Position numbers: made by a program
In this document: piece by piece, positions 5,714 through 14,020 of the stretch
Layout: the number at the start of each line of letters is the position of its first letter
Position numbering within the stretch: position 1 is the stretch's first letter
Origin: Octopus vulgaris
Taxonomy: Eukaryota
NCBI GenBank assembly: GCA_951406725.2
Contig: OX597824.1
Coordinates: forward strand, 95,108,001 to 95,172,000
Length of the DNA stretch: 64,000 nucleotides
Direction of reading: 5' to 3'

Positions 5714-8700
5714 GGTGCTGCTGCTTGTTTGTTTGTTTATTTGTTTGTTGAGCGAAGCAGTCTTTGTCCCAGAGTGGGAGAAGTCCGAAATGTGGTCCTT
5801 TGCTATTCGTAAGACCCGCAGAAGAGAAAGCAGGTCAACCCCCGACTGTCGGGCGAAATGCTTAGCTGTATTTCGTCTGCCGTTACATTCTGAGTTCAAA
5901 TTCCACCAAGGTCCACTTTGCCTTTCATCCTTTTGGGGTCGATAAATTAAGTGCCAGTTGCGTACTGGGGTCAATGTAATCGACTTAATCCCTTTGTCTG
6001 TCCTTGTTTGTCCCCTCTCTGTTTATCCCCCTGTGGGTAATAAAGAAATAAATACAAAATATTAAGAATTCAATGAAGTAAAGTGTTCTGCTTACCATAA
6101 TTTTTAAACTGGTTTCACTGTAGGAAGAAGTTTGTGCATTCTGGAATTTATTGGCCATTTGTTCCTTCTGTGAATCTTCTGATTGTCTTGCAGAAAAAGA
6201 AGGAGAAAATAGTTCTGGTTTCCCTTCATCATTGCTGTCACTGAATGTTGTGCTCTCGTGGCCAGATAACAATGCTTGTGGCTCAGGTTCACTATCGGAA
6301 TCTGAAGAAGGCATTTAACAAAAAAGAGAAACCTTTCATTGGAAAAAAAAAAATCAGATATTTCAAGTCATGAATTCTTCAGTTCTTTCCATATTTCTAT
6401 GAACAATAATTAATGACTTTAACCAAATATTTAAACCCAAATAATTATAAACAGTATGTAATGGCAATGTCTTATGAAAAGAGTGAAGTGAGAGACTATA
6501 TGCAGTAAAATGCTGCCCCTATTTGGGGCTCAGGAGCCCAGCATTTCATCAGCTGTCATTGTTCTTTGTCATAAATCATCATCATCATCATCGTTTAATG
6601 TCTGCTTTCCATGCTAGCATGGGTTGGACTTTTTTGACTGAGGGCTGGCAAACCAGATAACTGCACCAGGCTCCAATCTTAATCTGGCAGAGTTTCTTCA
6701 GCTGGATGCCCTTCCTAATGCCAACCACTCTGAGAGTGTAGTAGGTGCTTTTTACGTGCTACCGGCACAGGGGCCAGTCAGGCAGTACTGGCAATGACCT
6801 CGCTCAAATCCTTTTACACATGCCACTGGCACAGGTGCCAGTAAGGTGACATTGGTAACAATCACGCTTGAATGGTGTCCTTCTACGTGCCACCAGCACG
6901 GAAGCCAGTTGACTGCTCTGGCAATGATCAGGCTCAGATGGTGTTCTTGGTAGCCTACTAGCACGGGCACAAGTGCCAGTAAGGCGACACTAGTAATGAT
7001 CACACTCGAATGGTGCCCTTTTATGTGCCACTGGCATGGAAGCCGGTTAGCCGCTCTGTCAACGATCACACTAAAATGGTGCTCTTTGCACCCTGCTAGC
7101 ACAGATGCTAGTCGTCGAATTTGATTTTGATTTCGATGTATAAAAGAAAAAAAGGAATACCTTTGATTACAAATCTGTTTGATTAGAGTTGACAGGCCAA
7201 CCAACCAACCAACCAACCAGCCAGCCAGCCAACCAGCCAGCCAGCCAACCAGCCAACCAGCCAGCCAGCCGACCAGCCAGCCAGCCAACCAACCAGCCAG
7301 CCAGCCAGCCAGCCAGCCAACCAGCCAGCCAGCCAACCAACCAGCCAGCCAACCAACCAACCAGCCACCCAACCAGCCAGCCAACAAAGTAATTGGAGGT
7401 TTTATAGTGACACCAGCTGTAGAGAATAAATTGTACTTATGATGCCCAACTGATTAGGATTTTATGAAAATCACTGACTGACCTTTCACTTCTGAATTTA
7501 AATCCAATGTGCCATGCTTTTCGAATACTCCATAGGAATTCATTTGACTGTAACCGAGATTTCTGTTTAGTTTTTTCTAAAGAAATAGAAAATTGATTAT
7601 TTAGAATTTCCAATTTCAGTGAGATAAAAAAAAACCAAAGAGTAAGATAAGACATTCTTCAACTTCTAAAATTGTAAAAGAAAGAAAGAAAGAAATGCTG
7701 TAAAGAACACTGAAAGACAAGTGACAGGCTTTGCCAGTGAAGGGCAAAATGAGGCCCACGGGACTTATTTGGAATGGCATGTCTAATAAAAGAATTACCA
7801 TGGATTTTTTAGTAGTGCAGAACACCTAATGATGAGATACATCTTAGGTGGCCCTTTTCTCAAAAAGTGCTTGCATCTGCCTGAGGTGCACAGGGATCAG
7901 GAATTGAAATCCTTTCACTTGGAAGTATGCTTTTCAGGAATGGAAACTGGATTTCAAGACAACTGTAGCATATTCAGCGCCAGTCCTCATCCTACAGACT
8001 TTAGCAAAAACCAAACATTTTCAATAATTTCAAAATTAGGCATAAGGAAGCCTACAAAAGTTTGGGGTCACTTCAATCAGTTTAACTGACTCCAGTACTT
8101 TACTGGTACTTTATTTTACCAATCCTGGAAGGATGAAAGGAAATGTCAGCGCAAACAGTATTGAGGTGGTCAAGCATGACCATCGAACGTTGGGCCTCAC
8201 AGAGGCAATGACAAAGGTCCGTGTGAGTTCATGGCTGTTTCCTGCACCAACTTTACATAGCAGCCCCAGCCCATCCAAAGTACCTTGGATCACAGGACGA
8301 CCTGCTGTGCTTACCTTGGATCGTGCTTGAGTCAAGTACATCAACATCAAAATAAAAATCAAATGGCAATTGTAGTTGTGATACCTGTGCCAGTGGCACA
8401 TAAAAAGCACCATCTGAACATGGCCAATGTCAGTGCCACCATGACTGGCTTCTGTGCCAGTGGCATGTAAAAAGCACCCACTACATTCACAGAGTGGTTG
8501 GCATTAGGAAGAGCATCCAACTGTAGAAACACTGCCAGATCAGACTGGATCCTGGTGCAGCCTCCTGGCTTCCCAGACCCCAGTCGAACCGTCCAACCCA
8601 TGCTAGCATGGAAAGCGGACGTCAAATGATGATGATGATGATAACGAAAAAGATTTGCATATGTCTGAACTACACGGTGGCCAGGAATAGAAAAACCTTC

Positions 8701-11700: not shown

Positions 11701-14020
11701 TGCCCTACTCCTCTCAAAAACTTCTCCCCATATGTGTACGAATACCACAGTTACTTAGTGCCCTTTCCACATATTTCTTTCCTTTGTATGTACTTTTGCC
11801 CGTTTAGAGAGTACATTGAGCACACAATGACCGTCCAAAGACTGACATTTTCATTTTTGCTTTTACCCTTTCAAAAGATTTCCTCACAATATCCTGAATT
11901 TAACTAAAGAATCTCTGAGAGACGAAAGTATAGCTAACTCCTTGTAAACAACAGCAAGGCATTTTGTCCAATGTTCAATTAATTCTGTTAAATTAAAAAC
12001 CAAATACTTACTCCAGCATTATTAGCCACGGGACTTGTTTTTGTACGAGGTGTTCTTGGAACCTTTGTTGGTCTGTTAGATCCTTCATCATCTGAAGTTT
12101 CCAATTTTCTCTTCTGTGAGAAGAAAGGAACATAGCTGTCACCTCTGCCCTCGTCATTGCTGTCACTGAGGGCACTGCTTTCATGACCTGCACCAAGATT
12201 AAACTGATCTGCATCGCTTTCAGAATCTGGAAGGTAAAAGGAAGTCATTTATTTAACGAATCACATTGTAGATATGAAGTCTGTTTATTTATTTTTGTAG
12301 AGTTCAATGAATAAATAATTAAGAATGAATGTTGTCCACTATAGCTCCGAGTCGACCGAAGCTTTGTGATTGAATTCGGTAGGTGGAAGTTACTGCCGTG
12401 TGTGTATGTGTGCGTATAGCTGCTCAGTGCCTCTCCGAAAGAGAGAGAGGGTTGTGACTTAACTGGGTTCTATACGAAAAATAAAATTAGGCTATGGGCT
12501 TGATTTTATCAACAATTTTGCATTACTTTATAACACTGAACTCTTATTTGCTTTAAGTGTAGATGACTGAAATGACAGGTACCAAGTCAAATGATCAGTT
12601 GCCTCAGTCCACTAGTCGTAAACAGGTACTGTGTAAGTAGAAGCAGCATTGTAAAAATGTTATTCTATAACCCAGGGTCAGTCCTGGCTGAGCAGATACA
12701 GAACAGTAGTTTGTTAGATTGCAACGTTCAATTCACTTCCTGTCTGTCTCTAAAAGCCTATTTAATATCTCGCCTTAAGAGAAGAGTCCCCACTTGTCTT
12801 AATCAACCGTGAGACTGGATCCAATCACAGATTCCGGTTACAGGCTGTTGGTGTACCATGAGGAAAGGATCAAAGGTCCTTCTCATGCTACAGGATCGTA
12901 AGGCCAGTTTCCTGGATGATTCTGTGGTGTATATATTCCCCACTTGGATAGGACACCAATCGGTCATAGAATTACTCCTTTTTTCCACCTGAGTGGACTG
13001 GACCAATCTGAAATAAAGTGTTTTGCGCCAGAACACGACACATCGCCCAGTCCAGGGATTGAAACCACAATCTTATGATCACGAGTGCAACAGCCAAATC
13101 ACTAACACACCTGCATCCACAGGTGTGTCATGAATGATATACAATAGCCTATTCTTCCTTAAAACTCGTCGTTATGCACAAGCATCCACTACTGAGGGGA
13201 CATTTTCCATAACCATGAGAGATTCCCATCAATATGTGAGACAGACATTACTCAGCTTGGTTCGGAGAGAAACTTAATATCAAATAACAAGTCTATCATA
13301 ATTCCATTCATACAGAAGATGTTTTAACGAAATGTTTTACGAGATCGAATCCAAAGGTTGATTGGAACTTTACATATTTTATCAGCCCAAGAAAAAAACA
13401 AATGGTAAATTTAACCGCAACAAAACCTGAACTGAAAATATAAGGGACCATAAATTAAACACTTCATGGTTTGTTCGATCATCAAACAACGCTAAAAACT
13501 GTAACAGTCTCGCAGTTAAACCTTTCGTTGCTAAAAATCTGTCAAAATACAATACTTTGTTGCTGTTACTTTAGAAAATAGGAAATAATTTAGTAAAATA
13601 AGTTTGTCAATATGAAACAGACATCTAGAATATATATTAACGTGGTATTTTGATGGGGAGTTTTGACTTAGATCCCTGTGTGTCTGTATAAATACATGAA
13701 ACCCGACAAATTTCCTGAGTTAAAATTTCCAGCAACCAAACATTTTTCGATCCAAATTAAAACGAGAATAATGTAAATGCGTATTTAACAATGAAACCAT
13801 TACAGAAAGAACACTTTCACTTTCTATAGATCTATAAAAAGTATAATTAATTCATTAGTAAATTATTCATTTATTATTTTTTTTAATGATTTTTCTTTTT
13901 GAAAATTTTAATTATCATGTTTCTTTTTTTTTAATTTCAGATTTCTCTGCCCTATTTATTGTTTGCTTATGTTCCGATAACGATAAGGTTTTTTTCTTTA
14001 TACAGGGTGAGGGTTGTTAT

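What the first reader, a model, noticed from the sequence alone, without database searches (positions are those of the whole stretch)
6096..12226. CMTR1 N-terminus expanded by in-frame tandem exon duplication (A1-B1-A2-B2-A3)
Seen: an acidic Ser-rich exon (GHES...SDSNDEG) occurs three times and a second exon twice. All keep intact splice sites, alternating phases and open frames, and the B1/B2 indel is 9 nt, while the flanking introns have gained separate insertions. Known: the N-terminus of human CMTR1 before the G-patch carries an NLS and a CK2-phosphorylated Ser/acidic patch that promotes Pol II interaction. Inference: this lineage multiplied that module (SDSND, TSDDE and KRK motifs). Each A+B pair preserves frame, so pairs could be skipped to tune copy number.
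Basis: partly seen in the sequence, partly recalled or inferred. Interest (0 to 1): 0.7.

Follow-up and report, generated by a model that had tools for sequence, protein, structure and literature searches.

The report
Octopus CMTR1 N-terminal exon array
In this octopus the cap-methylating enzyme CMTR1 has a roughly threefold longer, acidic, serine-rich N-terminus, built in two steps by tandem exon duplication; the array is real and conserved, already appears in a sister species' annotation, and has an untested functional effect.

Summary
On the minus strand, five canonical AG/GT exons lie between the first coding exon (14753-14723) and the G-patch exon (5316-5158). They are A1 12226-12012, B1 10158-10056, A2 8987-8773, B2 7576-7483 and A3 6301-6096. 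A exons are 3n+2 nt (phase 1 to 0) and B exons 3n+1 nt (phase 0 to 1), so the array reads in frame.

The gene is CMTR1. Its exons map colinearly (81-97% aa) onto the NCBI Octopus bimaculoides CMTR1 protein, whose annotated sequence already reads A1-B1-A2-B2-A3.

Argonauta hians has only A-B-A3, and the sister-group relatives have a single A module and no B. So the array grew in two steps: an old octopod step and a younger Octopus step (A1/A2 87% nt identity, dN/dS 0.33).

The region before the G-patch is 288 aa against 90-92 aa in the single-module relatives, and it carries 20 CK2-type sites against 6-7. The fold model shows it unstructured. It occupies the position of the human CK2-phosphorylated P-Patch.

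Transcript inclusion, exon skipping and any functional effect remain untested. This is a known mechanism acting on a known protein, I found no description in print, and interest is modest.

The parts
14723..14753 (-). First coding exon of CMTR1 (coding part): ATG plus 10 codons plus 1 base, ending in phase 1 before a gtgtgt donor.
   Evidence: Motif scan and sequence reading. It matches the first 10 residues of the O. bimaculoides protein.
12012..12226 (-). Exon A1, 215 nt, phase 1 to 0: an acidic, Ser-rich module.
   Evidence: tblastn to P0003 residues 9-82 gives 89% identity, E 8e-35.
10056..10158 (-). Exon B1, 103 nt, phase 0 to 1 (the long form).
   Evidence: tblastn to P0003 residues 83-116 gives 94% identity.
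8773..8987 (-). Exon A2, 215 nt, phase 1 to 0.
   Evidence: tblastn to P0003 residues 117-187 gives 86% identity.
7483..7576 (-). Exon B2, 94 nt, phase 0 to 1 (9 nt shorter than B1).
   Evidence: tblastn to P0003 residues 189-219 gives 84% identity.
6096..6301 (-). Exon A3, 206 nt, phase 1 to 0. It is the old paralogue of A1/A2, and its last residues belong to the G-patch domain.
   Evidence: tblastn to P0003 residues 220-288 gives 90% identity. The Pfam G-patch match in P0003 starts at residue 282.
5158..5316 (-). G-patch exon, 159 nt, phase 0 to 0.
   Evidence: Open frame, Pfam G-patch E 1.3e-11, and boundaries.
4048..4140 (-). Next CMTR1 exon downstream.
   Evidence: tblastn to P0003 residues 341-372, 81% identity; splice context.
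3000..3071 (-). Next CMTR1 exon downstream.
   Evidence: tblastn to P0003 residues 372-396, 88% identity; splice context.
772..867 (-). CMTR1 exon at the start of the methyltransferase domain. The rest of the gene lies beyond the window.
   Evidence: tblastn to P0003 residues 396-428, 97% identity. The FtsJ match in P0003 starts at residue 425.
11954..12570 (-). Duplicated block of unit 1 around A1, paired with 8714-9241. It includes a 131-nt insertion (12325-12455) found in unit 1 only, and a 115-nt stretch (12456-12570) that is 93% identical to 9127-9241.
8714..9241 (-). Duplicated block of unit 2 around A2.
9948..10269 (-). Duplicated block of unit 1 around B1, paired with 7381-7691.
7381..7691 (-). 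Duplicated block of unit 2 around B2.

Best explanation
The region is the 5' part of an octopod CMTR1 gene, which encodes the cap-specific mRNA 2'-O-methyltransferase 1. Its disordered, acidic, Ser/Thr-rich segment between the start codon and the G-patch has been enlarged by two rounds of tandem duplication.

Step 1 happened before Octopus and Argonauta split. The single ancestral A exon became A - B - A3. The upstream copy kept the conserved head of the module. The downstream copy (A3) kept the tail that runs into the G-patch. The short exon B (3n+1 nt) sits between them. Because A is 3n+2 nt, two A exons can be co-included in frame only with a B between them.

Step 2 happened in the Octopus lineage, before this species and O. 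bimaculoides split. The whole A+B unit, with flanking intron, was duplicated in tandem, giving A1-B1-A2-B2-A3. The introns then collected separate insertions.

Shown: the anatomy, the phases, conservation in two Octopus species, the intermediate form in Argonauta, and the single-module sister group.

Inferred: all five exons are normally co-included, as in the annotated O. bimaculoides protein. This yields a region before the G-patch of about 288 aa with about three times as many CK2-type acceptor sites. By analogy with the human P-Patch, that would strengthen or grade phosphorylation-dependent recruitment of CMTR1 to the RNA polymerase II CTD.
For: - Exon anatomy and phases.
- Identity as CMTR1: G-patch exon at Pfam 1.3e-11, with FtsJ and G-patch domains in the orthologue. 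Nine exons are colinear with P0003 at 81-97% aa.
- The annotated O. bimaculoides protein has exactly E1-A1-B1-A2-B2-A3-G-patch, with junctions at the positions of the window's splice sites.
- Position-specific orthology: window A1 matches Obim A1 at 65/72 against 61/72 for Obim A2. B1 matches B1 at 32/34 against 27/31 for B2. Both species share the long B1 and short B2 forms. So step 2 predates their split.
- Argonauta hians has one unit. Its unit is equidistant from Obim units 1 and 2, at 47/94 each, whereas Obim units 1 and 2 share 96/103.
- Module tree: the A3 group has 99/98 support and the upstream-A group 85/83.
- Body-only tree: (Octopus, Argonauta) is sister to the single-module relatives at 100/99.
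- Selection: A1/A2 dN/dS 0.33, with 11 synonymous against 15 non-synonymous changes, P 0.013. There are no indels in the A exons and one in-frame 9-nt indel in B, against 98+1 and 8+6 gap columns in the aligned intron flanks.
- Site counts: 20 [ST]xx[DE] sites before the G-patch in Obim, 19 summed exon by exon in the window, 12 in Argonauta, 6-7 in the single-module relatives.
- AF2 model of P0003: residues 1-280 have pLDDT below 50 (block means 22-33), and no secondary structure appears before residue 264.
- Human P-Patch properties: PMC11290353, passages read.
Against: - I could see no transcript evidence for Octopus. P0003 is a genome-derived model (its longest contig is 80.9 Mb).
- Signals inside the window are weak on their own. 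Open frames would survive by chance in about 35% of simulations, and the eight splice dinucleotide bases in 17-36%. B1/B2 dN/dS is 0.61, not distinguishable from 1 (P 0.36).
- Exon identity is only slightly above flank identity (87% vs 79% for A, 88% vs 83-86% for B). One intronic 115-nt block is more conserved than the exons, at 93%.
- The N-terminal region evolves fast: Argonauta vs Octopus is 50-57% identical there, against 82% (609/739) in the rest of the protein. Its length varies from 40 to 184 aa in 10 other named invertebrate orthologues (9 molluscs, 1 nemertean, 1 sea urchin less Argonauta), so the extra length may be tolerated rather than selected.
- Homology of the A module to the human P-Patch was not tested at sequence level. 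No phosphorylation data exist for any cephalopod in what I searched.
- The AF2 model is poor overall (mean pLDDT 51.6, 14-row alignment), so low confidence at the N-terminus is only weak evidence for disorder.
Confidence: 0.75

Rival explanations
1. The expansion is real and transcribed but functionally neutral: a tolerated length change in a fast-evolving disordered linker, with no effect on CMTR1 regulation.
For: - The length before the G-patch ranges from 40 to 184 aa among the 11 named non-Octopus orthologues sampled.
- A venerid clam model (Ruditapes, P0011) has its own triple repeat, while its sister Mercenaria has a single short N-terminus.
- The N-terminal modules are 50-57% identical between Argonauta and Octopus, against 82% for the protein body.
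- B1/B2 dN/dS is 0.61 with P 0.36.
- The window's unit 2 is less conserved against its O. bimaculoides orthologue (87/103) than unit 1 is (97/106).
Against: - A1/A2 dN/dS is 0.33, P 0.013.
- The head of the module is nearly unchanged between A1/A2 and the single-module relatives, at 22 of 26 residues.
- All five exons keep frame, phase and splice sites in two Octopus species, and A-B-A3 does so in Argonauta.
- The acidic and Ser/Thr composition is retained in every A copy.
Confidence: 0.35
2. The duplicated exons are used alternatively rather than together: mutually exclusive A exons, or skipping of A+B pairs. Most CMTR1 molecules would then carry one module, and the five-exon protein would be a minor or purely predicted isoform.
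For: - Phase arithmetic allows it. Any single A exon joins the first exon (ends in phase 1) to the G-patch exon (starts in phase 0). Each A+B pair is 318 or 309 nt.
- Tandem exon duplicates are a classic source of mutually exclusive splicing (PMC8373072; search listing and start of abstract only).
- No Octopus transcript-derived protein turned up in three exon searches. This is weak evidence, because the word index also missed Argonauta.
Against: - Exon B is in frame only when it lies between two A exons. Yet it has kept an open frame, its phase and its splice sites in Octopus (both copies, two species), and it is part of the Argonauta protein.
- A1 and A2 lack the tail that A3 and the single-module relatives have just before the G-patch. 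The Pfam G-patch match begins inside that tail, at residue 282 of P0003 and 89 of P0005. Splicing A1 or A2 directly to the G-patch exon would clip the domain.
- The NCBI model includes all five exons.
Confidence: 0.2
3. The repeat is an assembly or annotation artefact, for example a mis-assembled haplotype duplication, or pseudo-exons pulled into a gene model.
For: Only that the sole Octopus protein seen is a computational model.
Against: - The copies differ by 12-21% and carry different intron insertions. Haplotype or collapse artefacts do not look like this.
- An independent assembly of another species has the same array with position-specific differences.
- Argonauta has the intermediate form.
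Confidence: 0.02

Closest known systems
Octopus bimaculoides cap-specific mRNA (nucleoside-2'-O-)-methyltransferase 1 (NCBI protein, P0003, 1027 aa)
   Same: It has the same exon-by-exon architecture, E1-A1-B1-A2-B2-A3-G-patch. Per-exon identity to the window is 81-97% aa, and it shares the long B1 and short B2 forms.
   Different: It is a different species. Its A1 and A2 are much more alike (67/72) than the window's (57/72), and both carry changes that the window's copies lack. This points to gene conversion in that lineage.
Argonauta hians CMTR1-like (NCBI protein, P0009, 904 aa)
   Same: It has the same first exon, an upstream A-type module, a B-type segment, an A3-type module and a G-patch.
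   Different: It has only one A+B unit (165 aa before the G-patch against 288). Its B segment is shorter, and its exon boundaries are unknown because no DNA was available.
Human CMTR1 P-Patch (aa 26-89), CK2 substrate; PMC11290353
   Same: It lies between the N-terminus/NLS and the G-patch. It is Ser/Thr-rich with acidic residues downstream (CK2 consensus) and is predicted disordered. It belongs to the same enzyme family.
   Different: It is a single copy. Sequence-level homology was not tested here. Phosphorylation, the kinase and the effect on Pol II binding are unknown in cephalopods. The basic NLS-like cluster lies inside the octopod module rather than in front of it.
Single-module CMTR1 of the sister-group relatives (P0004-P0007, unnamed records)
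   Same: They share the first exon and the head of the A module (22 of 26 residues with A1/A2), and a tail that runs into the G-patch as in A3.
   Different: They have one A module of 80-82 aa, no B, and 90-92 aa before the G-patch.
Tandem exon duplication giving mutually exclusive exons (PMC8373072; listing and start of abstract only)
   Same: Adjacent homologous exons arise by tandem duplication with conserved phase.
   Different: Here the A exon is 3n+2 nt, and a second exon of 3n+1 nt is interleaved. The copies can therefore be co-included, and the annotated protein does co-include them. The result is a repeat expansion, not a substitution.
Ruditapes philippinarum CMTR1-like isoform X2 (P0011, 936 aa)
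   Same: It also has three N-terminal copies of an acidic and basic module ahead of the G-patch.
   Different: The event is independent: its sister Mercenaria has 40 aa before the G-patch. The repeat includes partial G-patch starts and may be a gene-model artefact. This was not examined at DNA level.

Membership tests
CMTR1 (cap-specific mRNA 2'-O-methyltransferase 1) | G-patch domain near the N-terminus | tested here: met
   The exon at 5316-5158 matches Pfam G-patch at E 1.3e-11, 44.6 bits against a cut-off of 22.
CMTR1 (cap-specific mRNA 2'-O-methyltransferase 1) | FtsJ/RrmJ-type methyltransferase domain after the G-patch | tested here: inconclusive
   Only the exon at the start of this domain (867-772) lies in the window; it is 97% identical to P0003 residues 396-428. 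The orthologue P0003 has FtsJ at E 7.2e-34. The catalytic residues lie outside the window.
CMTR1 (cap-specific mRNA 2'-O-methyltransferase 1) | C-terminal guanylyltransferase-like and WW domains | not testable with these tools
   These lie outside the window. In P0003 the WW match is below Pfam's cut-off (19.8 bits against 26.9).
CMTR1 (cap-specific mRNA 2'-O-methyltransferase 1) | Colinear orthology with an annotated CMTR1 | tested here: met
   Nine exons align in order with P0003 residues 10-428, and the first exon was found separately.
Tandem exon duplication | Adjacent exons homologous to each other, with the same length class and phase | tested here: met
   A1/A2 share 188/215 nt and B1/B2 83/94 nt, with identical phases. 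A3 against A1/A2 is 21-22/69 aa, tblastn E 3e-7.
Tandem exon duplication | Homology extends into the flanking introns (a genomic, not cDNA-derived, duplication) | tested here: met
   This holds for the young pair: 8714-9241 vs 11954-12570, and 7381-7691 vs 9948-10269. It was not detectable around A3, the old step.
Tandem exon duplication | Duplicated exons present in mature mRNA | not testable with these tools
   Support is limited to the annotated O. bimaculoides and Argonauta proteins.
CK2-phosphorylated P-Patch of CMTR1 | Position between the N-terminus/NLS and the G-patch | tested here: met
   the human layout is from PMC11290353.
CK2-phosphorylated P-Patch of CMTR1 | Clustered Ser/Thr with acidic residues at +3, in a disordered segment | tested here: met
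   Each A exon has 5-7 [ST]xx[DE] sites, and B has 0-1. The AF2 model gives pLDDT 22-33 and no secondary structure over residues 1-263 of P0003, though the model is shallow.
CK2-phosphorylated P-Patch of CMTR1 | Phosphorylation by CK2 and enhancement of Pol II CTD binding | not testable with these tools
   This needs phosphoproteomics or biochemistry.
CK2-phosphorylated P-Patch of CMTR1 | Sequence homology to the human P-Patch | not tested
Mutually exclusive exon cluster | Only one of the homologous exons is included per transcript | tested here: inconclusive
   The phases would permit it. Against it: the interleaved B exon is conserved, A1/A2 lack the G-patch-proximal tail, and the annotated model includes all five exons. 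No transcripts were seen.

The most novel reading that the evidence does not exclude
Octopods enlarged the CK2-regulated phospho-patch of CMTR1 stepwise, from one to two to three acidic modules, under selection. The result would be a graded phospho-switch for recruiting the cap 2'-O-methyltransferase to RNA polymerase II. Its module number could be varied further by skipping the frame-neutral A+B pairs. The same segment may have expanded independently in a clam, which would make it a recurrent evolutionary tuning point for co-transcriptional capping.
Probability: 0.15. Interest if true: 0.5.

Novelty: new variant of a known kind. Interest (0 to 1): 0.3.

Why it matters
CMTR1 is a conserved, essential cap-modifying enzyme. 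In human cells its N-terminal P-Patch is the handle through which CK2 controls recruitment to RNA polymerase II (PMC11290353).

A natural series with one, two and three copies of the equivalent segment in related cephalopods would be a ready-made test of whether the number of phospho-acceptor modules sets the strength of that recruitment.

The locus is also a clean example of how a 3n+2 exon can be multiplied in frame only together with a compensating 3n+1 exon.

Beyond that, this is an ordinary kind of change: repeat growth in a disordered region by tandem duplication. It is already visible in a public protein record, so its importance is modest unless a functional effect is shown.

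Tried and rejected
- **Origin of exon B, database search.** The B1 peptide searched against 1.84 billion representatives gave one hit, P0008. It is a repetitive, low-complexity protein that matches through a short string repeated five times, so I rejected it as spurious.
- **Origin of exon B, local comparisons.** I aligned four B peptides to the A3 tail plus G-patch, to A1, and to the N-termini of two single-module relatives. Of 1000 shuffles each, a fraction of 0.12-0.71 scored as well. 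Derivation of B from the ancestral A tail is therefore not supported. A short S-Y-S-x-x-S resemblance remains only a lead.
- **B or A blocks as dispersed repeats.** blastn against the whole window found only the two copies of each.
- **The 115-nt, 93% identical intronic block as an RNA gene.** There were 0 Rfam hits at gathering score in the whole window. Only four chance-level hits (E 0.34-0.89) fell in 8600-12800, none on the block. Fold z-scores were -0.46 and +0.26. It stays unexplained.
- **Other octopods or skipped isoforms.** Exon searches with A1 and A3 returned only P0003 from Octopus. The word index missed Argonauta both times, so absence is weak evidence.
- **Cluster members of P0003.** Whether shorter isoforms are annotated stays unchecked.
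- **Literature.** 'CMTR1' with 'octopus' gave 0 papers. 'CMTR1' with 'cephalopod' gave 0. 'CMTR1' with 'exon duplication' gave 1 unrelated paper. 'exon duplication' with 'octopus' gave 7 papers, none on this gene by title or abstract start.
- **Atlas search of the 1659-aa open frame:** no usable hit.
- **Not used.** The bacterial/archaeal genome collection and the phage, plasmid and E. coli collections cannot hold this gene.

Full report
**What is there**

The finding's limits (6096-12226) are the 3' end of exon A3 and the 5' end of exon A1 of a gene on the minus strand. Reading that strand gives five exons:
- A1 12226-12012 (215 nt)
- B1 10158-10056 (103 nt)
- A2 8987-8773 (215 nt)
- B2 7576-7483 (94 nt)
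- A3 6301-6096 (206 nt)

Each exon is preceded by a pyrimidine tract and AG and followed by GTAAG or GTCAG.

- A exons start in phase 1 and end in phase 0.
- B exons start in phase 0 and end in phase 1.
- The first coding exon (ATG at 14753, last base 14723, donor gtgtgt) ends in phase 1.
- The exon after A3 (5316-5158) starts in phase 0 and is a G-patch (Pfam E 1.3e-11).

The chain E1-A1-B1-A2-B2-A3-G-patch is therefore one open frame. Every search was made exon by exon, and the joined step was left out.

**Is it more than chance?**

- The A-containing blocks (8714-9089 vs 11954-12324) match at 82% over 376 nt, E 4.5e-102.
- The B-containing blocks (7381-7691 vs 9948-10269) match at 81% over 328 nt, E 1.3e-83.
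- B1 and B2 differ in length by one 9-nt gap.
- A3 is a far older relative. It shares a 41-nt stretch at 76-78% and 21-22 of 69 residues with A1/A2, with tblastn E 3e-7.
- tblastn found no further A or B copy in the 64 kb.

The introns do carry separate insertions:
- Unit 1 only: 131 nt at 12325-12455.
- Unit 2 only: multi-copy dispersed repeats at 6575-6836 and 8327-8648, a (GCCA)n array at 7196-7385 and a 138-nt doublet at 6824-7102.

**Which gene**

The A1 peptide alone retrieved the NCBI protein 'cap-specific mRNA (nucleoside-2'-O-)-methyltransferase 1 [Octopus bimaculoides]' (P0003, 1027 aa, E 3e-70). That annotated protein already reads first exon, A1, B1, A2, B2, A3, G-patch.

tblastn of P0003 against the window places nine exons in order on residues 10-428, at 81-97% identity. 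These are the five array exons, the G-patch exon and three more at 4140-4048, 3071-3000 and 867-772. The rest of the gene lies beyond coordinate 1.

The window is therefore from an octopod close to, but not the same as, O. bimaculoides. Nothing in it looked human.

**Order of events**

The G-patch exon alone retrieved named orthologues.

| Source | Architecture | Residues before G-patch |
|---|---|---|
| O. bimaculoides (P0003) | A1-B1-A2-B2-A3 | 288 |
| Argonauta hians (P0009, 904 aa) | A, B-type segment, A3 | 165 |
| Unnamed relatives P0004-P0007 | one A module of 80-82 aa, no B | 90-92 |

P0004-P0007 share the octopod first exon. Because 835-837-aa proteins sit on contigs of 2.7-4.7 kb, these records appear to be transcript-derived.

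- A tree made only from the G-patch onward puts (Octopus, Argonauta) at 100/100. That pair is sister to the single-module relatives at 100/99, apart from nine other molluscs, a nemertean and a sea urchin.
- A tree of the modules groups the three A3 copies at 99/98 and the five upstream A copies at 85/83.
- The Argonauta unit is equally distant from O. bimaculoides units 1 and 2 (47/94 each), while those two units share 96/103 residues.
- In the window the two units share 57/72 plus 22/31 residues.
- Orthology is position-specific: A1 to A1 65/72 against 61/72 to A2, B1 to B1 32/34, and long B1 and short B2 forms in both species.

The simplest history has two steps:
1. A became A-B-A3 before Octopus and Argonauta split.
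2. The A+B unit was duplicated in the Octopus lineage before the two Octopus species split.

Gene conversion could blur the dating. O. bimaculoides A1 and A2 share changes that both window copies lack, so conversion probably did occur there.

**Division of labour between the copies**

- The first 26 residues of A1/A2 match the single-module relatives at 22 of 26; those of A3 match at only 15 of 26.
- Conversely, only A3 keeps the tail next to the G-patch. The Pfam G-patch match starts inside that tail, at residue 282 of P0003 and 89 of P0005.

**Why B matters**

A is 3n+2 nt, so two A exons cannot be co-included in frame without a 3n+1 exon between them. B is exactly that. A+B is 318 or 309 nt.

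B is in frame only between two A exons, yet it is kept in Octopus (two copies, two species) and in Argonauta. This is the best indirect argument that the exons are used together rather than as mutually exclusive alternatives.

The origin of B is unresolved:
- There is no relative among 1.84 billion representatives apart from a spurious low-complexity hit.
- There is no significant similarity to the A tail, the G-patch or the relatives' N-termini.
- It is not a dispersed repeat.

**Selection**

- Between A1 and A2 there are 11 synonymous and 15 non-synonymous changes: dN 0.095, dS 0.29, ratio 0.33. The binomial P against neutrality is 0.013.
- B1/B2 gives 3 and 9 changes, ratio 0.61, P 0.36.
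- Exon identity (87%, 88%) is only a little above flank identity (79%; 83-86%).
- In simulation, open frames survive this much divergence by chance in 35% of trials, and the splice dinucleotides in 17-36%.

The case for constraint therefore rests mainly on cross-species retention, not on the window alone. One intronic block (9127-9241 vs 12456-12570) is 93% identical, more than the exons, and is unexplained.

**What it probably does**

Passages read in PMC11290353 show the following for human CMTR1:
- It has a multiply phosphorylated P-Patch at aa 26-89, next to the NLS and before the G-patch.
- CK2 phosphorylates it.
- Phosphorylation raises binding to the Pol II CTD through an intramolecular effect on the WW-domain region.
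- The patch is predicted to be disordered.

The octopod A modules occupy the same position. Each has 15-21 Ser/Thr, 13-16 Asp/Glu and 5-7 [ST]xx[DE] sites.

| Source | [ST]xx[DE] sites before the G-patch |
|---|---|
| O. bimaculoides | 20 |
| Window, summed exon by exon | 19 |
| Argonauta | 12 |
| Single-module relatives | 6-7 |

An AlphaFold2 model of P0003 with a 14-row alignment gives pLDDT 22-33 and no secondary structure over residues 1-263. The model is poor overall (mean pLDDT 51.6, pTM 0.41), so this is weak support for disorder.

The functional reading, that more acceptor sites give stronger or graded Pol II recruitment, is inference by analogy. No step of it was tested.

**Rivals**

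- **Neutral growth of a fast-evolving linker is the serious alternative.** The modules are 50-57% identical between Argonauta and Octopus, against 82% for the protein body. The length before the G-patch ranges from 40 to 184 aa in the other named orthologues. A clam model shows an independent triple repeat.
- **Alternative use of the exons** is allowed by the phases but argued against by B and by the A3 tail. It needs transcripts to settle.
- **An assembly artefact is excluded** by the divergence between copies and by the second species.

**Novelty**

The array is visible in a public protein record, so the sequence is not new. I found no description of it in print: 'CMTR1' with 'octopus' 0 papers, with 'cephalopod' 0, with 'exon duplication' 1 unrelated.

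It is a new variant of a known protein made by a known mechanism. Interest is modest and would rise if module number is shown to matter.

**Left unchecked**

- Any read or transcript data.
- DNA of other cephalopods.
- The supplements of PMC11290353 (phosphosite figures), which do not bear on the octopus claim.
- The closed metagenome and viral collections, which are not relevant here.

Noticed in passing
window 28396-28695 (-) and 36690-36977 (-); possibly also 48179-48409 (-): Upstream of CMTR1 on the same strand lie exons of a PHF10-like (BAF45a-type) double-PHD-finger gene. Both exons hit PDB 'PHD finger protein 10' chains at E 2.8e-14 and 7.7e-15. The first also matches Pfam PHD. The acidic, Ser-rich open frame at 48179-48409 had no Pfam match.
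   Followed up: partly
window 58358-63334 (-): A 1659-aa uninterrupted open frame, rich in Ser, Thr, Asn and Pro, with overlapping long frames on both strands. It had no Pfam family and no usable Atlas hit. It may be a giant exon of a low-complexity protein or a repeat-derived frame.
   Followed up: partly
window 9127-9241 and 12456-12570: A 115-nt intronic block about 140-250 nt upstream of A2 and A1 is 93% identical between the units. That is higher than the exons (87%) and the neighbouring intron (about 79%). It has no Rfam match and no fold signal. It could be a gene-conversion tract or a constrained intronic element.
   Followed up: partly
P0003 (O. bimaculoides) against window exons A1/A2 and B1/B2: The two units are 96/103 identical in O. 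bimaculoides but only 79/103 in the window's species. Both O. bimaculoides A copies share substitutions that both window copies lack. This suggests concerted evolution by gene conversion in one lineage after speciation.
   Followed up: partly
P0011 (Ruditapes philippinarum CMTR1-like isoform X2), residues 1-200: This clam protein model has its own threefold N-terminal repeat: the pre-G-patch motif occurs at residues 57, 133 and 180. Its sister Mercenaria has only 40 residues before the G-patch. This is either a parallel expansion of the same segment or a gene-model artefact.
   Followed up: partly
window 6575-6836, 8327-8648 and many other places (for example 1227-1574, 24376-24615): A dispersed, SINE-like repeat has up to 10 other copies in the window. 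Two copies lie in opposite orientation in the introns of unit 2. Its family was not identified.
   Followed up: no
window 7196-7385, 6824-7102 and 9731-9825: Three tandem repeats lie in the introns between the array exons: a (GCCA)n/(GCCAGCCAGCCAACCA)n microsatellite of 190 nt, a 138-nt tandem doublet, and a 42-nt repeat of 2.3 copies.
   Followed up: no
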